This document shows positions 1-59,872 of a stretch of DNA of 64,000 nt, piece by piece. Position 1 is the first letter of the stretch; each line of letters starts with the position of its first letter. Made by a program: the position numbers and the translations under genes. Where the stretch lies: IMG/VR virus record IMGVR_UViG_3300038345_000144. The stretch is one strand, 5' to 3'. Origin of the DNA: a virus. Its lineage: Duplodnaviria; Caudoviricetes. The notes under the pieces were generated by a model. The model made no database searches, was not told the DNA's origin, and was given only the letters and a program-made list of their open reading frames with translations.

Positions 1-17
1 GAAGCGGATGCAAACAT
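1..17 (-). CDS. 5' end of a gene running off the window
   Basis: ATG at 17 preceded by AAAGGAG; upstream TTGACC-N18-TATAAT promoter. Confidence 0.5.
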
Positions 18-113
18 AACTTTTTTATCTCCTTTCGTGATATTGTTTATATTATATTCAAAGAAAATATCGTTGGTCAATAGTGTGGTGACGATTTTTT
101 GTAAAATTTGAGT

Positions 114-178
114 ATGACCAAATAAATGACTAAATAATGACCCAATAAATGACCCAATAAAATTTATGATGATGACCT
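114..178. repeat. Phased ATGAC(C/T) direct repeats
   Basis: Copies at 114, 126, 137, 149, 172. Confidence 0.8.
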
Positions 179-639
179 TAAAATAAGCAATCATAATAAA
201 TAATAAAGGCAATAGTTAGTAGGAGGGCAAATAGGGATAAATAAAGAATATATATTATTGAATAGTGTGACATATTGTACTTTTTATTCCAAAAACAGGT
301 TTAACGATACTTTTTTTAACAAATCGTCAGTTTTAGTATCGTTAACGGCACTTTTACGCAGTTTCAAACAGATTTTCTGTTCAAATCTGATTTTCACTAT
401 AATCAGGAGTTTCAATACATCGTTAAAACGGTCAATTTTAGTGAAAGTTTAGTTAAAGAATAAAATATAACACCACCGTGTTATAGTAGACATTTTGAGG
501 GTAAAATAGGCACATATCACCGACATTTTGAGGGTACACTACATTACTCCACATTACGCTAAATGGTAATGTAAGGTAATGATTTAGCGTAGTATAAAAA
601 TACCGCTTGCTTTTTACTCTTTAGTGTATATAATCTAAA

Positions 640-732
640 TATGCTTATAGCACTCCTTCAAGCAAGGTATGTTTTTAGCAAGTTAGGTTGTTATTGGAAG
701 ACACTGCTTTGCAGAGTGGTGTCTTTTCTTTT
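640..732 (+). ncRNA. Putative small RNA A
   Basis: TTGCTT(607)-N16-TATAAT(629) promoter; terminator stem 698-725 with G-U pairs on + strand, then TTCTTTT; contains CACTCCTT; no SD-led ORF. Confidence 0.5.
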
Positions 733-737
733 GCAAA

Positions 738-929
738 TAAAAACCCCCGTATGTACGGGGAAAATTCATAAACATTTAGTCACCGAATTCCCAATTTCGA
801 GAAACCTCCGATAACGGAGAAGAGCAACACTGCAATTGCAAGCGTATATAGTGAGTGAAAAACCTCCGTACACGGAGAAAAGGGACCCAGAAATCAAGAA
901 GATAAGAAAAACCTCCACAACTGGAGAAC
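738..929 (-). CRISPR. Cas-less type I-E-like mini-array 1 (4 degenerate repeats, 3 spacers)
   Basis: Repeats start on + strand at 738, 799, 857, 906; minus-strand consensus TT-CTCCN-loop-NGGAG-GTTT(T/C)TC; unique spacers. Confidence 0.75.
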
Positions 930-935
930 AATAGA

Positions 936-1163
936 TTAGCCGTTAAGTTCAGCCCACTTTGCCATCATTTCGTCCCTGCGACCATCTGGATAGTTTGATG
1001 TTCCATAATAGAGATTGCCGTCAGCGTCACGATTATCAACTGTTGCTACGACAACATCTGCCTGCAACTTACTGCCATTCTCATTGGGCTTATATGTAGC
1101 ACATCCAATCGCACCTAAAGCAACGATGATAAGGATAATGATTGATATGATTGCCTTCTTCAT
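936..1163 (-). CDS. Small lipoprotein
   Basis: MKK, hydrophobic stretch, lipobox-like AIGC; SD AGAGGAG. Confidence 0.75.
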   Translation of the reverse strand: MKKAIISIIILIIVALGAIGCATYKPNENGSKLQADVVVATVDNRDADGNLYYGTSNYPDGRRDEMMAKWAELNG

Positions 1164-1432
1164 TTTAAGTTCTCCTCTGTGTGGTAAAAGCCTTTATTTT
1201 CAAGGACTTTAGCCTGTATTTTTCTCTCAAATGTAAGCAAATCATAGCATCTTTTTCTGGTGATGTAAATAGCAAAAACGGCTTTTTTTGCATTTGTAAT
1301 ATTACAATTTTATGTAGTTGTGGTTGCCCTGTTTTGACACCCCAATATATAGTGGTTGAGTGGTAAAAATGCCCTGAATTCAACTTCGTCATTCAACTGT
1401 TTAACTGCATCATTTGGGGCAAAATGACTAAA

Positions 1433-1521
1433 TTAAATAACCCCTGCTCACCCGCTTAATAGTGAACAGAGGTTATTAGGAAAGAGGTAATTATTCTATA
1501 TTATGAATAATCGAATAATAT
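1433..1521 (-). ncRNA. Putative small RNA B
   Basis: TTTACA(1556)-N17-TAGAAT(1533); terminator-like stem 1436-1477 with U-G pairs on minus strand; contains ACCUCUUUCCU. Confidence 0.5.
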
Positions 1522-1566
1522 ACTCCTATTCTACACTTGTAAACAGCATTTGTAAAGTAAAAATGA

Positions 1567-1646
1567 TAAAAACCCTGTCTATGACTACGACTTCATAAAC
1601 AGGGCGAAAGTAAGGAAAAAAGTTATGAATAATGAATAAGATATAT
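1567..1646 (-). ncRNA. Putative small RNA C (its terminator may also end the array 2 transcript)
   Basis: TATAAT at 1653-1658 with weak -35; CCCTGT...ACAGGG-TTTTT terminator; complementary to AAGTAAGGA-N8-ATG. Confidence 0.45.
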
Positions 1647-1700
1647 GCCTCTATTATAAGTGCTTTTTCTTAAAATGGAATAGGCAATTACAGACATATT

Positions 1701-1961
1701 AACAATCTCCGTACACGGAGAACTGGAGCAATAGCCTTGAAAAGAGTGCTCTTGCCGACTGAAAAACCTCCTATACAGGAGAAACATACATATACCTTAA
1801 TGGTCTTATTCAGAACGCTGGAAAAACCTCCAAACTGGAGAATAAACCCGAAGTCACTGACCACATATTTAGAGTCTTGAAAAACCCCCATAACGAGGAA
1901 CCATTGTTAATCCAACAACTGACCGTGTTGTTCTTGAGAAACCTCACAAGGCTGTGAGAAT
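1701..1961 (-). CRISPR. Cas-less type I-E-like mini-array 2 (5 degenerate repeats, 4 spacers)
   Basis: Repeats at 1701, 1761, 1821, 1879, 1936 (period 57-60 nt); same consensus as array 1; trailer repeat at 1701 has a degenerate handle. Confidence 0.8.
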
Positions 1962-2021
1962 GTTCTGATGAAATTCAAAACAATCAATGTTCATCTATCA
2001 TTATTAAATAGCCGTTAATAG

Positions 2022-2047
2022 AAAAGAGGCACTTGTGTACCTCTTTT
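2022..2047 (-). terminator. Intrinsic terminator (possibly bidirectional)
   Basis: AAAAGAGG...CCTCTTTT hairpin after the stop at 2050. Confidence 0.7.
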
Positions 2048-2049
2048 GA

Positions 2050-2205
2050 TTACTTCTGATTGGCTTTGAGTCCCTTTATCTCTTCTTCAAGTTCCTTGAT
2101 GATACCTACATAGTATTTCCACTGCCAGTGTACGATACATAAAGCGGCGATGCCCTCGATGGTCATTAAGATTAAAAATACATCACCAATATTAAGTTCT
2201 GTCAT
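2050..2205 (-). CDS. 51-aa membrane/coiled-coil peptide (not in ORF track)
   Basis: AGGAGG SD; MTELNIGDVFLILMTIEGIAALCIVHWQW... Confidence 0.65.
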   Translation of the reverse strand: MTELNIGDVFLILMTIEGIAALCIVHWQWKYYVGIIKELEEEIKGLKANQK

Positions 2206-2218
2206 TGTTTTTTCCTCC

Positions 2219-2758
2219 TTATGATAAGTTATACTTGGCTAACAACTTCTTCAGTTCGTTTTCTCTGCTCTTGAGTTCTGACTTCTCCCACTTGAGATTA
2301 CTCTTTGCTGTCTGTAAATCCTGTTCAGCCTTTTCTACATTCTTCTTCGTTCTGGCAATACGCTCTCTAACACGCAGGATTTCCTCGTACTTATAGAGAG
2401 TGGGCTTGTAGTCCTCGTCAGGCTCGCTGTAATTACGCTCTGGTGTGTCAAGGTAATTAGCAAAGTCAAACTTCGTAGGCTCGCCTACACGCTCATTAAC
2501 GAAGCCACGGAACGAACCCATTAAAGAAAACAGCGTCGGGTCATTCGGGTAGGGACAAGCATACAGATACTTGTGTGTCTTACGGCTCTCAACACAATAT
2601 AACCATAATACCTCGTCATCAAACGGTACAGGATGTATCTTGGTGTGTCCGATAATATAACCGCACTTTCTTACTACCTTAAATGCAGGGGTCTCATCTA
2701 TCTTGTCCTCTGTAAAAGGTGTTGTAATTACCTCAAAAATTGCCTCATTGATTGTCAT
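2219..2758 (-). CDS. Hypothetical protein with C-terminal coiled coil
   Basis: AAGGAGG SD; own promoter at 2791-2819. Confidence 0.75.
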   Translation of the reverse strand: MTINEAIFEVITTPFTEDKIDETPAFKVVRKCGYIIGHTKIHPVPFDDEVLWLYCVESRKTHKYLYACPYPNDPTLFSLMGSFRGFVNERVGEPTKFDFANYLDTPERNYSEPDEDYKPTLYKYEEILRVRERIARTKKNVEKAEQDLQTAKSNLKWEKSELKSRENELKKLLAKYNLS

Positions 2759-2790
2759 TTTTAGTGTCCTCCTTGACTGTTTGTGGCTTC

Positions 2791-2819
2791 AGTGTAGCAA
2801 CCCTAAAATCGCTTGTAAA
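2791..2819 (-). promoter_or_regulatory. Sigma-A-type promoter
   Basis: TTTACA-N17-TACACT. Confidence 0.7.
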
Positions 2820-2925
2820 GGGCAAAATACCCCTATACCTAAACCCTGTTAGTAAATCGTTGAAATTCGTTCTGGACTAACAAAATATTTGTATGGAATT
2901 CCCATCTGGACCCTTAAAAAATGAC

Positions 2926-3020
2926 AAAAGAAAAGAGGTGCTTCTTCAGCACCCCTTTCTCTATAATGGAGGTATTCGTGAATAAATATTCACAAATCGT
3001 AGGGTCGTTCACTCCCTACA
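2926..3020 (-). ncRNA. Putative small RNA D
   Basis: Extended -10 TGTTATAAT (hexamer 3027-3032); two hairpins, unpaired ACCUCC, terminator 2929-2960 with U-tract. Confidence 0.55.
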
Positions 3021-3037
3021 TATATGATTATAACACA

Positions 3038-3099
3038 TTTAACTCGTTTTTAACTCATCATTTAACTCGTTTTTAACTCAATCACTTCCATTTTAATTC
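3038..3099. repeat. Phased TTTAACTC repeats
   Basis: Copies at 3038, 3049, 3061, 3072; variant at 3092. Confidence 0.8.
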
Positions 3100-3119
3100 G
3101 CTCATCGAATTAAACAGCA

Positions 3120-3518
3120 TTACTCCTTGCAATAGTCTTGAAAGGTAATAGCGTGGTCTATGGTCAATAGGTAGGTAGCGTTTCTTTGTAATGTAGCCAT
3201 CTCCTCATAAAGGTACTGGTGCAATAGTTTCTTTGCTAACTCGTCATTTCGTTCCACCAATACTACTTCATCATTTTCTGGTTCCTCAAAATTAACCCTT
3301 AATGTAGAGATTGTAGGGTTGTTTTCAAAGTTTTTATTAACTATATGAACGGTCTTTCCCAAAGATACAGCATTATATATATCTGTGGGCATCTGCTCAA
3401 ATTTAGCATACCAACACTCTACAATAAAAAGGTGCTTGAGAGCATAAAGGTATCGGTAACAGGTTTGATTGTGTTCCTTTGCTACCTCGGTTACAATGTC
3501 ACCATACGATTTACTCAT
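3120..3518 (-). CDS. Hypothetical protein, paralog of 7928-8386
   Basis: Shared YG..V.EVAK.HNQ.CY and D.LAKK motifs; start adjusted to the SD. Confidence 0.7.
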   Translation of the reverse strand: MSKSYGDIVTEVAKEHNQTCYRYLYALKHLFIVECWYAKFEQMPTDIYNAVSLGKTVHIVNKNFENNPTISTLRVNFEEPENDEVVLVERNDELAKKLLHQYLYEEMATLQRNATYLLTIDHAITFQDYCKE

Positions 3519-3538
3519 AATCATTACTTCCTTTCTAA

Positions 3539-3655
3539 TAAAAAACTCCCCCACCCAAATCAACTAAAATTAGGTGAGGGAGTTCAATTAAGTTGTTATA
3601 TCAATGATAACTTATCCTCGGAGGTGTTGTAAATATGCAAAAAACATTTATTACC
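3539..3655 (-). ncRNA. Putative small RNA E or attenuator leader
   Basis: TATAAT at 3661-3666; contains CACCUCC (complement of GGAGGTG-N8-ATG); terminator 3544-3584 plus U-tract. Confidence 0.45.
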
Positions 3656-3769
3656 ACCGTATTATACTTTTTTAGTATCATACAACTGGATTATTAAAGG
3701 GTATTAAATGAAGAAAGTGCCTACCCGAATGGATAAGCACTCTCTTGTAGAAAGGAGATAATAGGTCAA

Positions 3770-4912
3770 TTAGATAACTGGATAATCTTTTGCTTCCTGC
3801 TTGGTCATAAAGAAATGAATTCCTGTTGAACATTCATTCCATCGGTTCGTATTAAAGTCGGGTTCACCAAACGCCAAACTTTTAACGGTTTTTCCAACAG
3901 TATAGATAAAGGTATCGTTATACCAAGCCCTAACCTTAATATCAGCAGGCAATTTGTTATCATTCATATCATAGAACCCAAGCACCTTAACAGCACTGGC
4001 TCTGCATTTTCTTCCCGTACCCGAACTTCTCTTGGCATTGGCGGGAATTTGAAGTTTAACTAATACTCCCTCTTTAGTGTGGCTATCCTTAACCCAGATT
4101 GCTTTTTTCCAAGCGACAAAAGCACCCTCTTCAGGACATATCATATGGTACTTAATATTAGTAACATTGTCTCCAATGCAAGCATTATCAAAGTTAGCAT
4201 CTTCCATATGTCCACAATCTATGTCAGCAAAAAACGCTTTAGTTAAGTTAGCACTGAAGAATTGTGAGGAAGTGATTATTGTCTTTCTAAATTGTGCTTC
4301 ACTTAAATTTGCCTCTATAAAATGACAACTTTTTAGGTTAGCATAATTAAAGACCGCCTTACTGCAATTAGCCTGATAGAATGAACAACATTCAAACACG
4401 GTCTGTTCCCGTGAAGAAATAAAGCAATCTATTGACATCATATTTGCCCCGCTAAATTTGACATCAAAAAGGTGGCATCCCCAAAATTTGGTAAAACCAC
4501 AAAAAGCATAGTTGAATTCACACAACCATATTTTAGTGGCTTCAAAGTGAGCGTCTGTAAATATAGCATATTTGAATATACACTTGTTAATCACACATTC
4601 TTCAAATGACGCACAGGTAAACATACAGCCATAAAACCAGCAAGAGTCATTAAAAACTGTCTGAACAAATCTTGCTTTATTAAAAATTACCTGGTCAAGT
4701 TTACAGTGAATAAATTTACAGTTCTCAAACAAACTGTAACTTAAATCTCGATAGTCTCTAAAATCAATATGCTCAAACACTTGATTTTTGAATGTGGCTC
4801 TTTTACCACCTTTTTCGTTATTCAACCACTTCTTATGGTTTTTAAGCACGGTGGCTAATGATTTCTTATCAATCGTTATATCTTCTGGTATATAATAAAA
4901 ATCATCACTCAT
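3770..4912 (-). CDS. Pentapeptide-repeat protein with C-terminal DUF5758-like domain
   Basis: A(N/D)(L/F)xx repeats; CPEEG.F..WKK...LQIPANAKRS...KCRAS...ECSTGIHFF. Confidence 0.85.
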   Translation of the reverse strand: MSDDFYYIPEDITIDKKSLATVLKNHKKWLNNEKGGKRATFKNQVFEHIDFRDYRDLSYSLFENCKFIHCKLDQVIFNKARFVQTVFNDSCWFYGCMFTCASFEECVINKCIFKYAIFTDAHFEATKIWLCEFNYAFCGFTKFWGCHLFDVKFSGANMMSIDCFISSREQTVFECCSFYQANCSKAVFNYANLKSCHFIEANLSEAQFRKTIITSSQFFSANLTKAFFADIDCGHMEDANFDNACIGDNVTNIKYHMICPEEGAFVAWKKAIWVKDSHTKEGVLVKLQIPANAKRSSGTGRKCRASAVKVLGFYDMNDNKLPADIKVRAWYNDTFIYTVGKTVKSLAFGEPDFNTNRWNECSTGIHFFMTKQEAKDYPVI

Positions 4913-8577: not shown

Positions 8578-8694
8578 AGAAAAAACCCTCATCCAAATAG
8601 GTAATATTCAGATGAGGGGGTTGCCAATATGAAAGTCGCTATATTTACCGAAGTAAACAGTATTATTTTATCATATTATTTTATTTCTTGTAAA
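8578..8694 (-). promoter_or_regulatory. Promoter followed by an ~80-nt leader and terminator (sRNA or attenuator)
   Basis: TTTACA(8694)-N18-TAAAAT; hairpin 8584-8622 plus U-tract directly before the SD of 8562. Confidence 0.55.
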
Positions 8695-40813: not shown

Positions 40814-41926
40814 TTACTCCTGTACGGTTGTTTTGTTATCCGAAGTATAAATCTTTTCAAATGGCAGTCTCTTAATAGCAACATCACCAGTCTTGGTCAT
40901 AATCAAGCCGTCTGTATAGTTGGTATGTGTAACCAAGATATGAGGCTCAAGATTAGGGCAATCAGCCTTAATACGCTTAACCAAATCATCAACAGAGTCA
41001 AATCTGCCATAACGAATAGACTCCTGCCACTGGTTGTGAACATTTGTTTCGTCGATAGGACCGTAGAATGTGTCCTCAACGAAATTACCTCTGCCGTGTC
41101 GTGTAAGATAAGGGCGAGTTACATAGATAGCCTCGTCCAGTGTCTTACCATACTTCTTCAGACAGGCATTTACATTATAAAGACCTGTCTTGGACGGAGT
41201 TCCGTGAACCATATCAAAGTCTCCGTCAATAAGTAATCCCTGACCGTTCTCAAAGATGATGTTATCATACTTATCAAAGAGTTCGCCCAAATCAACGATA
41301 CGCACCTTTTCGACATTGTTCTTAATCTCTACTACATAGTTAAAGATTGTAGCACTGTCCAAGAGCATATCCTTATACATACTATCGCTGTTGCGATACT
41401 TCTGGGCATACTTTAACAACTTTGGAATACTATACTTTTGTCTGATGTCTTTCAAAAGGAAGAACAATTGTTCTATTGAGAGTTTCTGAACCTGCTCTAT
41501 GGTAACGCCAAAACCAGCGTTATTACGGTATACGCACTCCCAAATACCCATACCACAACTTCCTGCTTTGTCCTGTGTTTCCTTAAAGCAATTAAGAAAA
41601 ACATCGTCAATCAGTGTGATTTTAGTATTTTTGTCACAAAAGATTACTGGTGCTATCCCAGTGAGTTTCTGGAAGTCTCCGTATTCTTTACCAAGAGTGT
41701 ATAGGTCAGGGTGATATGTGTCTGCCCAATAGGTATCAGCACCGTTGAAAGAGCCAGAGGATAATTCGTGAAATACGAACTTCTTGTCTCCGATTTCAAC
41801 AGTATGCCCTGATTGAGCACCGCCATTATGTCTGATTACTAAATTCTTTCCCTCTTGGCTAAAGTGGTTTACGGCAAGTCCTTTACCTTCATCACCGAAA
41901 TTAGCACCAATAATCGCCTTTATCAT
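40814..41926 (-). CDS. purA: Divergent adenylosuccinate synthetase-like protein
   Basis: GANFGDEGKG, RHNGGAQSGHT, FENGQGLLID, TPSKTG, YLTRHGRG. Confidence 0.8.
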   Translation of the reverse strand: MIKAIIGANFGDEGKGLAVNHFSQEGKNLVIRHNGGAQSGHTVEIGDKKFVFHELSSGSFNGADTYWADTYHPDLYTLGKEYGDFQKLTGIAPVIFCDKNTKITLIDDVFLNCFKETQDKAGSCGMGIWECVYRNNAGFGVTIEQVQKLSIEQLFFLLKDIRQKYSIPKLLKYAQKYRNSDSMYKDMLLDSATIFNYVVEIKNNVEKVRIVDLGELFDKYDNIIFENGQGLLIDGDFDMVHGTPSKTGLYNVNACLKKYGKTLDEAIYVTRPYLTRHGRGNFVEDTFYGPIDETNVHNQWQESIRYGRFDSVDDLVKRIKADCPNLEPHILVTHTNYTDGLIMTKTGDVAIKRLPFEKIYTSDNKTTVQE

Positions 41927-58741: not shown

Positions 58742-59872
58742 TCAAGTTCCATATTTCAAGGCTTCTTCATAGGTTATGAAGAAATGAATACCGCTTGCAC
58801 ATTCTTTCCAACGGTTTGTTTCAAATTTTTCAGAACACTTTGTAATTTTACCTACAACATACTGGGTATCAGTAGCAGGTGACTTAAAAAGTGGGAAGGC
58901 AACGGTGTCTGCGGGGTACTTTCTTCCGTTAAGGTACTGAATTTCCAAAACCTTTACCTTATCAGCACGGCACTTTCTACTTGTAGCAGAACTTCTCTTG
59001 GCGGTTTCTGGAATTTCAAGTTTAATGATACAATCCCTCTCTTTACCGTCTTTGTTGATTACTCTTCCCTTCTTCCACCCGATGAATGAGCCGTTTGAAG
59101 GACACGCCATTGGACACGGAACATTAGTACAGTCGGATATTTTAGCCGAGGTTCCAAATAAAGAAAGACCCGTAGCATTAGTAAAATCAACATCAATAAA
59201 TTTTGTATTTGATAAAACGGCATTGTCAAATTGAGATTTTGGGACATCTATTTTAAGTCCGTCAAACATACTGCCTATAAGTATTGAATTGTTAAAAGCA
59301 CACATACCAATGCTTGCATTAAGAAAAGTTGACTTTGTTAATGTTGCTCCTTCAAAATAATCACTGAATAAAGATGTGTTTATAACTACCATTTGATGTA
59401 AATTAGCACCCTTAAAACCACAATAATTAAGTTTAGAGAACTTAAAGGTCGCACACTGACCATTACACATCTTAAATGAACAGGAAGCAATTGACCCCTG
59501 GTTAAATTCTGTAAAACGCAAGTCGGCATAATCAAAGTTGTCCTGACTTAATGAAGAATGATTAAACATAGCCCCGTACATATTAGCGTACTTAAAGTCC
59601 GTAGCGGCAATTGTAGCCCAGTTAAAATTAGCACTAACCAACTTTGCGTGATTAAACACACAATGGTCAATATTTGCGAACTGAAAATTAGCCTTATTTA
59701 ATTGGCAATCACTAAAGTCGATAAATTTAAGGGTTTGGTATGATAAATCAGCCTGCTTACCCTGTTCCCCATTAGTTTTAAGCCAAAGGGCGTGTTCCTT
59801 GATAATGTTTGATAGTTTTTCTCCGTTAATACGCACCTTATTAGGCTTCTGCATAGGCTCCATATCCATCAT
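58742..59872 (-). CDS. Pentapeptide-repeat protein with DUF5758-like C-terminus, paralog of 3770-4912
   Basis: EHALWL...GKQADLS; CPSNGSFIGWKK...KLEIPETAKRSSATSRKCRA...ECASGIHFF. Confidence 0.85.
   Translation of the reverse strand: MMDMEPMQKPNKVRINGEKLSNIIKEHALWLKTNGEQGKQADLSYQTLKFIDFSDCQLNKANFQFANIDHCVFNHAKLVSANFNWATIAATDFKYANMYGAMFNHSSLSQDNFDYADLRFTEFNQGSIASCSFKMCNGQCATFKFSKLNYCGFKGANLHQMVVINTSLFSDYFEGATLTKSTFLNASIGMCAFNNSILIGSMFDGLKIDVPKSQFDNAVLSNTKFIDVDFTNATGLSLFGTSAKISDCTNVPCPMACPSNGSFIGWKKGRVINKDGKERDCIIKLEIPETAKRSSATSRKCRADKVKVLEIQYLNGRKYPADTVAFPLFKSPATDTQYVVGKITKCSEKFETNRWKECASGIHFFITYEEALKYGT

What the first reader, a model, noticed from the sequence alone, without database searches (positions are those of the whole stretch)
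607..3769. Cluster of ORF-less promoter-terminator small-RNA cassettes with anti-Shine-Dalgarno sequences, interleaved with the arrays
Seen: five units of about 80-115 nt, each with a -10 box (some with -35) and a terminator-like hairpin, most with G-U pairs that agree with the promoter strand. They are A 640-732(+), B 1433-1521(-), C 1567-1646(-), D 2926-3020(-) and E 3539-3655(-). Each has a pyrimidine tract complementary to an SD. In B-E the complement reads like a whole initiation region: AGGAAAGAGGT...ATG, AAGTAAGGA-N8-ATG, GGAGGT-N4-GTG, GGAGGTG-N8-ATG. B, C and D share (A/G)TGAATAA. The 3' UTR at 3712-3769 also carries UCUCCUUUCU before its terminator. Inference: a battery of trans-acting antisense RNAs that block translation of host or defence mRNAs. 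With the guide arrays, this would form an RNA-based host-control island.
Basis: partly seen in the sequence, partly recalled or inferred. Interest (0 to 1): 0.7.

Follow-up and report, generated by a model that had tools for sequence, protein, structure and literature searches.

The report
Small-RNA-like cassettes beside phage CRISPR arrays
In a gene-poor stretch of a roughly 400-kb gut or rumen phage, three short promoter-to-terminator units with no gene (B, C, D) are conserved well enough to be real small RNAs, a fourth (E) is the leader of an ordinary gene, and nothing yet shows that they block ribosome-binding sites.

Summary
Every hairpin folds better on that strand. The units are not one class.

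- **B, C and D** (minus strand, about 80-95 nt) have no conserved ORF on either strand. Across 12 related phage contigs they vary less than their flanks (B 1 of 89 sites, C 3 of 85, against about 7.6%). B and C are paralogs. D has an extended -10 box preceded by four phased GAGTTAAA repeats. They are most likely genuine small RNAs. C's and D's terminators also end CRISPR array 2 and the 134-aa gene.
- **E** is not stand-alone. It is the promoter and 5' leader of gene 3524-3120, with a terminator-like hairpin just before the ribosome-binding site. It has a paralog at 8618-8586. Its "anti-SD" tract lies in the promoter spacer.
- **A** is a plus-strand unit with a well-supported terminator, but its anti-SD tract is paired and not conserved.

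The shared anti-SD theme is no more than chance. No target was found in the window, and the host is unknown. Short terminated transcripts of this kind are already known from giant phages. The same scan had already read the 8578-8694 unit as a terminated leader; I reached the same reading for E.

The parts
607..634 (+). Promoter of unit A (TTGCTT-16-TATAAT)
   Evidence: Read from the sequence. A TTGCAA-16-TATAAT promoter sits at the same place in the diverged relative L018, although the surrounding sequence differs.
641..735 (+). Unit A RNA body with intrinsic terminator (stem about 696-727, then a U-run)
   Evidence: Folds at -27.2 kcal/mol on the plus strand against -16.7 on the minus strand. 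All five substitutions in the terminator stem across relatives keep pairing on the plus strand. The 5' half, including the CUCCUU tract, is diverged in L018.
738..765 (-). Terminator of the lipoprotein gene and array 1 transcript; lies in register as a fourth, long-stem repeat of array 1
   Evidence: Called terminator-like. It resembles the repeat (TTCCCCGTACATACGGGGGTTTTTA against TTCTCCGTGTACGGAGGTTTTTC) and sits 56-58 nt after repeat 3.
1528..1556 (-). Promoter of unit B (TTTACA-17-TAGAAT), a member of the phage promoter family
   Evidence: Both hexamers are invariant in 12 relatives. The overlapping second TTTACA (1543) is mutated in 10 of the 11 relatives shown, so it is not the real -35 box.
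1433..1521 (-). Unit B RNA: hairpin 1 (1512-1489, AUUAUUC/GAAUAAU stem), single-stranded ACCUCUUUCCU linker (1488-1478), terminator hairpin (1477-1436)
   Evidence: Fold -29.8 kcal/mol, z -6.1. One variable site in 89 across 12 relatives. No ORF on the minus strand. The plus-strand ORF loses its ATG in L018 and its frame differs in all other relatives.
1653..1658 (-). -10 box (TATAAT) of unit C; no good -35 box
   Evidence: Invariant in 12 relatives. The stretch from -10 to about +25 aligns with unit B, so the two are paralogs (read).
1566..1646 (-). Unit C RNA: unstructured 5' part with tandem UUAUUCA, a CU-rich tract (UUUUUUCCUUACUUUCG), terminator 1605-1572 and a U-run. This is also the first strong terminator after CRISPR array 2.
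   Evidence: Three variable sites in 85; the one stem change turns U-G into U-A.
3027..3080 (-). Promoter of unit D: extended -10 box TGTTATAAT (3035-3027), preceded by four GAGTTAAA repeats spaced 11-12 bp apart (3080-3036), which look like an operator
   Evidence: Direct repeat family D13. The phased repeat pair is found only here in 64 kb. The repeats are kept, with variation, in relatives.
2926..3020 (-). Unit D RNA: hairpin 1 (GUAGGG/CCCUAC), hairpin 2 (palindrome GUGAAUAUUUAUUCAC), single-stranded UACCUCCAUUAUA linker, terminator 2959-2931. This is also the only terminator after gene 3524-3120.
   Evidence: Fold -36.6 kcal/mol, z -5.1. The 5' 51 nt are invariant in 12 relatives. The changes are 3-4-nt indels in the linker and substitutions that keep pairing. 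The indels break the 32-codon minus-strand ORF.
3604..3633 (-). Promoter of gene 3524-3120 (TTTACA-18-TATCAT). The 'anti-SD' CACCTCC (3627-3621) lies in its spacer.
   Evidence: In relative L022 a deletion rebuilds a promoter from the same -35 box.
3525..3597 (-). Unit E: the 5' leader of gene 3524-3120. A terminator-like hairpin (3585-3543) and U-run are followed at once by the RBS AGAAAGGAAG and the ATG at 3524.
   Evidence: Fold -26 kcal/mol, z -5.5. It is a paralog of the leader hairpin at 8618-8586, with the same CCCTCAYCT...GGRTGRGGG-T6-AGAAAGG-ATG layout. It is 97.5% identical in L018, although the gene it precedes is only 59.5% identical.
3705..3769 (-). 3' UTR and intrinsic terminator of the pentapeptide-repeat gene 4912-3770, carrying UCUCCUUUCU
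   Evidence: Fold -23.3 kcal/mol, z -5.4. Two variable sites in 58. An ordinary gene terminator.
1697..1952 (-). CRISPR array 2: five type I-E-like hairpin repeats, the last one degenerate
   Evidence: The same repeat type lies between cas6e and cas2e in another huge phage, locus L010.
797..930 (-). CRISPR array 1: three repeats directly after the stop codon of the 75-aa lipoprotein-like gene 1163-936
   Evidence: Repeat and spacer content differs between relatives.

Best explanation
The stretch is a gene-poor, signal-dense part of a huge phage that carries its own type I-E CRISPR system. It is cut into many very short minus-strand transcription units. The five 'cassettes' fall into three kinds.

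(1) B, C and D are genuine non-coding small RNA genes of about 80-95 nt. Each has a promoter, then a 5' element built from TTATTC/GAATAA (a stem in B and D, a tandem repeat in C), then a single-stranded CU-rich linker, then an intrinsic terminator. B and C are paralogs. D is driven by a regulated promoter with four phased GAGTTAAA sites. C's terminator also ends the array 2 transcript, and D's also ends the 134-aa gene. C and D RNA can therefore arise both from their own promoters and as 3' trailers. I infer that these RNAs act in trans by base pairing through the exposed CU-rich linker. No target has been shown.

(2) E is the promoter and 5' leader of gene 3524-3120. It carries a promoter-proximal terminator-like hairpin and belongs to a repeated leader family in this phage. 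It either attenuates transcription until an antitermination signal arrives, or yields a short 5'-UTR RNA.

(3) A is a separate plus-strand unit that converges on array 1. Its terminator is under selection; its function is unknown.

Shown here: the positions, the strand bias, the lack of ORFs, the conservation and the paralogy. Inferred: the transcripts themselves and their mode of action.
For: - **Strand and structure:** hairpins are stronger on the named strand, and B, D, the E leader (3536-3600) and the 3' UTR terminator (3700-3772) have z-scores of -5 to -6.
- **Promoters:** the TTTACA-N17/18-TATAAT-like family has 16 minus-strand copies against 0.4 expected, and includes B's and E's promoters. 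D's iterons occur only at D.
- **Conservation in 12 relatives:** variable sites are B 1 of 89, C 3 of 85, the first 51 nt of D 0 of 51, and the E leader 4 of 79. Flanking non-coding and coding sequence shows about 7.6%, and third codon positions show 9-47%.
- **Stem changes:** 10 of the 13 stem substitutions in A keep pairing, including all 5 in its terminator stem; C 1 of 1 and D 2 of 3 also keep pairing.
- **No conserved ORFs:** B's plus-strand ATG becomes AGG in L018 and its frame shifts in the other relatives. C's complement has 4 codons. D's frames on both strands are broken by indels.
- **E as a leader:** the hairpin abuts the RBS, a paralogous leader lies at 8618-8586, and the E region is 97% identical in L018 between genes that are 59.5% and 87.4% identical.
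- **Precedent:** the giant phage 201phi2-1 has 11 mapped sRNAs, 3 intergenic and 8 made by premature termination in a 5' UTR (PMC11512511).
Against: - There are no transcript data.
- All relatives are close (89-100% nt identity), and phage mosaicism could inflate the apparent conservation.
- C has only a -10 box and may be no more than the trailer and terminator of array 2.
- B's U-tail is interrupted, and the terminator scan did not call it.
- The two E stem substitutions, each seen in a single relative, break a pair at the base of the stem.
- No Rfam family matches.
- No target in the window scores better than shuffled controls.
- Anti-SD motifs are at chance level.
- The TTATTC/GAATAA elements could be DNA operators rather than RNA features.
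Confidence: 0.5

Rival explanations
1. All the units are cis-acting, promoter-proximal stop signals (attenuators). A promoter fires and the transcript ends after 55-95 nt, unless a phage antiterminator lets RNA polymerase read into the downstream genes and arrays. This is how the lambda late promoter PR' and terminator tR' work under the Q protein. The short RNAs would be by-products.
For: E fits exactly and has a paralog at 8618-8586. Three of the 16 family promoters on the minus strand carry a hairpin and U-run just before the RBS. B and C have -10-like hexamers (TATTAT, CATAAT) in the first 25 transcribed bases, as lambdoid pause sites do (read). B, C and D all lie upstream of genes or arrays on the same strand.
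Against: The genes downstream of B, C and D have their own family promoters (1269-1241 and 2819-2791), so read-through is not needed. The B and C bodies, including loops and linkers, are more conserved than their own promoters, which a plain stop signal would not require. No antiterminator gene was identified.
Confidence: 0.22
2. One reading: a battery of trans-acting antisense RNAs (A-E), each using an anti-Shine-Dalgarno tract and a start-codon complement to block translation of host or defence mRNAs. Together with the CRISPR arrays they would form an RNA-based host-control island.
For: In B, C and D the CU-rich tract is single-stranded, lies just 5' of the terminator, and is invariant in 12 relatives. 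B's linker ACCUCUUUCCU resembles the usual 3' tail of Firmicutes 16S rRNA, ACCUCCUUUCU; that tail sequence comes from my own knowledge, not from a tool. The units lie between arrays of a phage that has its own CRISPR system (notes; L010).
Against: E's tract lies in a promoter spacer, and A's is paired and not conserved. The motif is at chance frequency. The 'ATG/GTG' complement lies in a hairpin stem in D, and in B it changes to CCU in L018. No translation-start region in the window pairs better than with shuffled units. The single 20-nt match in metagenomes is at the level expected by chance.
Confidence: 0.12
3. The units are ordinary terminators and promoters of neighbouring genes and arrays that happen to lie close together. 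The TTATTC/GAATAA and GAGTTAAA elements are DNA operators for phage regulators. No RNA has a function of its own.
For: C's and D's terminators are the only terminators for array 2 and for gene 3524-3120. D's iterons look like protein-binding sites. The TTATTC elements are palindromic or repeated, as operators are. A relative with a different leader, L020, also carries TTATTC-TTATTC-N3-GAATAA before the same gene.
Against: B has its own family promoter and its own terminator, with no gene between them and none needing it. The whole B body is nearly invariant, not just the repeat element.
Confidence: 0.12
4. Plus-strand reading: the SD-plus-start look-alikes are real starts of plus-strand micropeptide genes, or remnants of them. 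This includes a type I toxin-antitoxin pair at E, with the 20-codon hydrophobic ORF 3635-3697 as the toxin.
For: ORF 3635-3697 (MQKTFITTVLYFFSIIQLDY) has GGAGG-N8-ATG and stays open in all 12 relatives.
Against: - For B, the ATG is lost in L018 and the frame differs in the other relatives.
- For C, the ORF has only 4 codons.
- For D, the frame is broken in L018 and the start is GTG only 4 nt after the SD.
- For the ORF at E, there are 4 non-synonymous changes against 1 synonymous. No plus-strand promoter or terminator was found.
- Hairpin G-U pairs and U-runs favour the minus strand.
Confidence: 0.05

Closest known systems
sRNAs of giant Pseudomonas phage 201phi2-1 and phiKZ mapped by ONT-cappable-seq (PMC11512511)
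   Same: They are short transcription units in a jumbo phage, in which a terminator follows a start site within 250 nt. Some are intergenic (like B, C, D) and most are 5'-UTR premature-termination products (like E). One is conserved by position among related phages.
   Different: There is no sequence or Rfam relationship. The units here are predicted from sequence only. Here they are packed between CRISPR arrays in a phage of a probable Gram-positive-like host (strong GGAGG ribosome-binding sites), and B and C are tandem paralogs.
Lambdoid late promoter PR' with terminator tR' (lambda 6S RNA), opened by the Q antiterminator
   Same: A promoter is followed shortly by an intrinsic terminator ahead of genes that have no other promoter, so expression needs read-through. 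This applies to E and to its paralog at 8618-8586.
   Different: No Q-like gene or Q-binding element was identified. The terminated RNA would be about 55 nt, not 194 nt. The hairpin sits 2 nt from the RBS.
Base-pairing sRNAs that occlude ribosome-binding sites with C/U-rich seeds (e.g. prophage DicF on ftsZ; RsaE and RoxS in Firmicutes) - recalled from knowledge, not tested
   Same: A 5' stem-loop, an exposed pyrimidine-rich stretch and a Rho-independent terminator, about 50-100 nt in all; some examples are phage- or prophage-borne.
   Different: There is no homology and no known target. The CU tract here is no commoner than chance, and no chaperone is known.
Type I toxin-antitoxin pairs with very short hydrophobic toxins (Ibs/Sib type) - recalled from knowledge
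   Same: A 20-codon hydrophobic ORF with a strong SD (3635-3697, plus strand), overlapped by minus-strand transcription signals.
   Different: No plus-strand promoter or terminator was found. The substitutions are mostly non-synonymous. The minus-strand elements are explained by the neighbouring gene's terminator and promoter.

Membership tests
Intergenic trans-acting base-pairing sRNA | Own promoter directly upstream of a short body | tested here: met
   B has a promoter of the phage family (16 copies against 0.4 expected). D has an extended -10 box and unique iterons. C has only an invariant -10 box. All of this is sequence-level evidence.
Intergenic trans-acting base-pairing sRNA | Rho-independent terminator on the same strand | tested here: met
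   G-U pairs and U-runs favour the named strand. B's U-tail is interrupted.
Intergenic trans-acting base-pairing sRNA | No conserved ORF on either strand | tested here: met
   for B, C and D.
Intergenic trans-acting base-pairing sRNA | Sequence conserved beyond neutral expectation | tested here: met
   Variable sites: B 1 of 89 and C 3 of 85, against about 7.6% in the flanks; the first 51 nt of D 0 of 51. All relatives are close, so the power is limited.
Intergenic trans-acting base-pairing sRNA | Accessible seed complementary to a target mRNA | tested here: inconclusive
   The CU linker is unpaired in the folds. No start region in the window pairs better than with shuffled units. The host is unknown.
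Intergenic trans-acting base-pairing sRNA | Discrete stable transcript in infected cells | not testable with these tools
   No RNA data are available for this uncultured phage.
Promoter-proximal terminator / attenuator leader (PR'-tR' type; 5'-UTR-derived sRNA) | Terminator between the promoter and the first gene, with no other promoter for that gene | tested here: met
   Met for E: promoter 3633-3604, hairpin 3585-3543, RBS 3536-3527, ATG 3524. Not met for B, C and D, whose downstream genes have their own promoters.
Promoter-proximal terminator / attenuator leader (PR'-tR' type; 5'-UTR-derived sRNA) | Cognate antiterminator (Q-like or N-like protein, or put-like RNA) | not tested
   Only 64 kb of about 400 kb was available, and no search for such genes was made.
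Type I toxin-antitoxin | Short hydrophobic toxin ORF with its own promoter and terminator, plus an overlapping antisense RNA | tested here: inconclusive
   The ORF 3635-3697 and its SD are kept in 12 relatives. No plus-strand promoter or terminator was found.
Any Rfam family | Match at or above the gathering score | tested here: not met
   No match over 64 kb at the gathering score. Below threshold there were only chance-level hits: rli38 with E 0.22 and a plant miRNA.
CRISPR-associated helper RNA (tracrRNA-like anti-repeat) | Extended complementarity to the array repeat | tested here: not met
   The longest perfect complement is 6-7 nt, equal to shuffled controls. Type I-E systems are not known to use such an RNA (my own knowledge).

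The most novel reading that the evidence does not exclude
B, C and D are a phage sRNA family whose invariant, exposed CU-rich linker mimics the 3' tail of 16S rRNA. The linker would mask Shine-Dalgarno regions of host, defence or rival-phage mRNAs. The family would be expressed from the same island as the phage's CRISPR guide arrays, with C released as the 3' trailer of the pre-crRNA. One locus would then combine DNA targeting by guides with translational silencing by sRNAs.
Probability: 0.12. Interest if true: 0.75.

Novelty: new member of a known kind. Interest (0 to 1): 0.4.

Why it matters
Small RNAs of huge uncultured phages are almost unexplored. The few mapped cases come from cultured Pseudomonas jumbo phages. 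Here sequence alone, backed by a dozen related metagenomic contigs, picks out three strongly conserved ORF-less units and a repeated family of terminated leaders. All sit beside the guide arrays of a phage-borne CRISPR system.

If transcripts are confirmed, B, C and D would be good starting points for asking how huge phages use RNA regulators during takeover. The E-type leaders would point to antitermination control in this phage group.

The result also shows that a look-alike of an anti-Shine-Dalgarno sequence or of a start region is weak evidence in an AT-rich genome rich in ribosome-binding sites.

Tried and rejected
- **Rfam:** nothing over the whole window at the gathering score, and nothing credible over 1-4000 with permissive E-values.
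- **Phage GenBank records:** megablast of the first 6 kb found no match.
- **Whole genome:** none is held for this window.
- **IMG/VR protein scans:** the 179-aa and 134-aa neighbours found no relatives. A JGI metagenome scan with an alignment of the 134-aa protein also found none.
- **Relatives:** they came only from exact-protein look-ups in ENA and Logan contigs.
- **B/C motif scan:** TTATTC-N1-2-TTATTCATAA in IMG/VR gave 118 or more hits. None has the combination of -10 box, CU tract and terminator, so they are chance matches.
- **20-mer of B's linker in JGI metagenomes:** one hit, which is the antisense of a translation-start region of a 981-aa ORF on a 382-kb contig (L150). By my rough estimate, one or two such hits are expected by chance. 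The ORF has no PHROG match. I do not count it as a target.
- **Target search in the window:** duplex energies of the units (single-stranded parts for B, C, D) against 145 start regions were no better than with shuffled units.
- **Anti-repeat idea:** no complementarity to the CRISPR repeats above chance.
- **Spacers:** none matches elsewhere in the window.
- **Cas genes:** no homolog of L010's Cas5e, Cas6e or Cas2e in the 64 kb.
- **ORF 1392-1165** downstream of B: rejected as a gene, because L022 has two stop codons in it.
- **Second TTTACA promoter of B (1543-1515):** rejected, because its -35 box is mutated in 10 of the 11 relatives shown.

Full report
**Context**

The window comes from a large phage. 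Nearly all ORFs lie on the minus strand and GC content is about 0.36. Recognisable genes include an NAD-dependent DNA ligase, a helicase, an HNH endonuclease and a PurZ-like enzyme. No whole genome is held for it. Exact-protein look-ups place the region on metagenomic contigs of 184-408 kb.

The 'arrays' next to the units are hairpin repeats followed by GGTTTTTC on the minus strand. In another huge-phage contig (L010, 467 kb) the same repeat type lies between genes that match Cas5e, Cas6e and Cas2e. The arrays are therefore type I-E-like and read on the minus strand. Earlier notes of this scan say that this phage has its own Cascade-Cas3 operon elsewhere. I could not check that here, and the 64-kb window has no Cas homolog.

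**The observation**

The first 6 kb holds 13 terminator-like sites against 3.2 +/- 1.9 in shuffles. Six of them are CRISPR repeats; the rest include C, D and the 761-744 hairpin. Further along the window the scans list roughly one long-stemmed terminator per 5 kb, so the cluster is real.

A phage-wide promoter family, TTTACA-N17/18-TATAAT-like and often with an upstream TG, has 16 copies on the minus strand and 1 on the plus strand, against 0.4 expected by chance. Most copies lie 25-45 nt before an RBS. The promoters of B (1556-1528) and E (3633-3604) belong to this family. D has an extended -10 box (TGTTATAAT, 3035-3027) preceded by four GAGTTAAA repeats spaced 11-12 bp apart. The phased repeat pair is found only here in 64 kb. 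C has only a perfect -10 box. A has TTGCTT-16-TATAAT.

**Transcription map on the minus strand**

Read, from high to low coordinates:
- pentapeptide-repeat gene (4912-3770), then its terminator (3746-3711);
- promoter E, leader hairpin and U-run (3585-3539), RBS, then the 134-aa gene (3524-3120);
- iterons and promoter D, D RNA, then terminator D (2959-2931);
- promoter 2819-2791, then genes 2758-2219 and 2205-2050, then a terminator-like hairpin at about 2044-2018 (read by eye; not folded, and not called by the scan);
- leader, then array 2 (1952-1697);
- the -10 box of C, C RNA, then terminator C (1605-1572);
- promoter B, B RNA, then terminator B (1477-1436);
- about 170 nt of conserved non-coding sequence;
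- promoter 1269-1241, then the 75-aa lipoprotein-like gene (1163-936);
- array 1 (930-797), then terminator 761-744.

Unit A converges on this last terminator from the plus strand.

Three points follow:
- E is not a stand-alone cassette. Its hairpin abuts the RBS, and the gene has no other promoter.
- Terminators C and D also serve array 2 and the 134-aa gene.
- Only B and A are fully self-contained.

**Relatives**

Exact-protein look-ups gave 13 related contigs with usable sequence. Eleven of them, together with the window, make up the 12-genome alignment (L018 and L022-L031). The alignment covers the region at 89-100% nt identity; L018 is the most distant.

| Feature | Variable sites across the 12 aligned genomes |
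|---|---|
| B RNA | 1 of 89 |
| C RNA | 3 of 85 |
| D RNA | 6 of 93 (none in its first 51 nt) |
| E leader | 4 of 79 |
| Terminator 3712-3769 | 2 of 58 |
| Flanking promoters, intergenic DNA and gene 1163-936 | about 7.6% |
| Third codon positions of the local genes | 9-47% |
| Array 2 | 21% |

My rough Poisson estimate for B and C together (4 variable sites observed, about 12 expected) gives P of about 0.006.

Against L018, the E region (3525-3769) is 97% identical, although the genes on either side are 59.5% and 87.4% identical. Most stem substitutions keep pairing on the named strand: all 5 in A's terminator stem, 1 of 1 in C and 2 of 3 in D. The two in E each occur in a single relative and break a pair at the base of the stem. 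Because all relatives are close and phages are mosaic, this is evidence of constraint, not proof.

**ORFs**

- B: the plus-strand 'initiation region' is not conserved. Its ATG becomes AGG in L018, and the frame differs in all other relatives because of a 1-nt difference in C's U-run.
- C: the complement encodes 4 codons.
- D: the plus-strand frame is broken in L018, and its minus-strand 32-codon frame is broken by 3-4-nt linker indels.
- ORF 1392-1165 has stop codons in L022.
- The 20-codon hydrophobic plus-strand ORF at 3635-3697 stays open in all 12 relatives. It has four non-synonymous changes against one synonymous, and no plus-strand promoter or terminator. A type I toxin cannot be excluded but is weakly supported.

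**Relationships among the units**

B and C align from the -10 box to about +25 (TAGAATAGGAGTATATTATTCGATTATTCATAA against TATAATAGAGGCATATATCTTATTCATTATTCATAA), so they are paralogs.

The shared '(A/G)TGAATAA' is the complement of a TTATTC element. This element is a tandem repeat in C. In B it forms a hairpin stem (AUUAUUC/GAAUAAU), and in D a palindrome (GUGAAUAUUUAUUCAC). Tandem TTATTC occurs 3 times in the window against 0.36 expected. A relative with a different leader (L020) carries TTATTC-TTATTC-N3-GAATAA before the same gene. Whether this element works as an RNA stem, an RNA seed or a DNA operator is open.

E's leader hairpin is a paralog of the hairpin at 8618-8586. Both share CCCTCAYCT...ATTTGGRTGRGGG-T6-AGAAAGG-ATG. 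That other site is one an earlier follow-up of this scan called a terminated operon leader. In L022 a deletion removes E's -10 box, the leader and the 134-aa gene. It rebuilds a promoter from the same -35 box in front of a 40-aa ORF. The leader therefore travels with the gene.

**The anti-SD theme**

On the minus strand, 5-mers of the 16S-tail-like CACCTCCTTTCT occur 416 times in 64 kb, or 0.58 per 90 nt. Matches of 7 nt or more occur at about 10 loci, 2 of them in the finding's range against about 0.5 expected.
- In B, C and D the CU tract is unpaired, lies just 5' of the terminator, and is invariant. This fits a seed.
- E's tract lies in the promoter spacer.
- A's tract is paired, and is replaced in L018.

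Duplex energies of the units (single-stranded parts for B, C, D) against 145 start regions in the window are no better than for shuffled units. None of the units is complementary to the CRISPR repeats beyond chance. A 20-mer of B's linker has a single match in JGI metagenomes, at the level I would expect by chance. It lies antisense to a start region on a 382-kb contig. A scan of IMG/VR for the B/C motif gave only chance hits. Rfam has no match.

**Interpretation**

B, C and D are most likely genuine small RNAs. Whether they work by pairing through the CU linker is plausible but unshown. E is a terminated or attenuating 5' leader of a kind repeated in this phage. A is a separate plus-strand unit with a selected terminator and no known role.

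The closest documented parallel is the set of 11 sRNAs mapped in giant phage 201phi2-1, 3 intergenic and 8 from premature termination in 5' UTRs (PMC11512511). The finding is therefore a new member of a known kind. The position between phage CRISPR arrays is its most interesting aspect.

Noticed in passing
window 1784-1820 (array 2, third spacer): The 27-nt core of this spacer has the opposite orientation in 9 relatives (L001, L018, L024, L025, L027-L031). Only L026 matches the window. The flanking repeats are unchanged. An inverted spacer between fixed repeats is odd for a CRISPR array in a phage that earlier scan notes describe as lacking spacer-acquisition genes.
   Followed up: partly
window 738-930 (array 1): One repeat-spacer unit (about 857-905) is absent from L001 and L018. 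The last spacer (766-798) differs between relatives: three unrelated versions in the window, L001 and L018, and several more variants at its terminator end. The terminator 761-744 lies in register as a long-stem fourth repeat.
   Followed up: partly
window 3036-3633 and loci L017, L022, L023, L026: There is a variable gene cassette between the conserved E and D non-coding blocks. The window has a 134-aa gene only. L017, L023 and L026 have a 135-aa gene and a 38-40-aa hydrophobic ORF. L022 has only the 40-aa ORF. L018 carries a 53%-identical allele of the larger gene.
   Followed up: partly
window 285-485 (-): This may be a sixth non-coding unit. The motif TATAACACGGTGGT (485-472) also occurs at 3666-3653, and these are the only two exact copies. 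It is followed by about 190 nt of conserved hairpins ending in a U-run near 300 (fold z -3.1). The 3' half is well conserved in L018.
   Followed up: partly
window 3635-3697 (+): A 20-codon hydrophobic ORF (MQKTFITTVLYFFSIIQLDY) with GGAGG-N8-ATG stays open in all 12 relatives. It is a candidate small membrane peptide or type I toxin, but no plus-strand promoter or terminator was found.
   Followed up: partly
window 1164-1432: About 270 nt of non-coding DNA between unit B and the lipoprotein gene's promoter is 98.5% identical in L018. Its only long ORF carries stop codons in L022. Its function is unknown.
   Followed up: partly
window 40814-41926 (-): The protein matches PHROG 1211, '2-aminooxy adenylosuccinate synthetase' (PurZ-like), with E 5e-42. 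The phage may replace adenine with 2-aminoadenine in its DNA.
   Followed up: no
L010 (IMGVR_UViG_3300021431_002946, 467 kb): Another huge phage carries cas5e, cas6e, a five-repeat array of the same variable-stem hairpin type, and then cas2e. The array lies between cas6e and cas2e.
   Followed up: partly
window 53909-53800 (-): A third family promoter is followed by a leader hairpin and short U-run just before the RBS (aaatcacc...ggtgattttctttagaaggag). It resembles the E and 8618 leaders in layout, but not clearly in sequence.
   Followed up: no
window 3770-4912 (-) and 58742-59872 (-): There are two paralogous proteins with pentapeptide repeats and a DUF5758 domain, 380 and 376 aa long.
   Followed up: no
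L150:2948-2967 (Ga0080013_1000002, 382 kb): A perfect 20-nt complement to unit B's linker and terminator arm lies across the RBS of a 981-aa ORF in an unrelated large contig. By my estimate one or two such matches are expected by chance, and the ORF has no PHROG match.
   Followed up: yes
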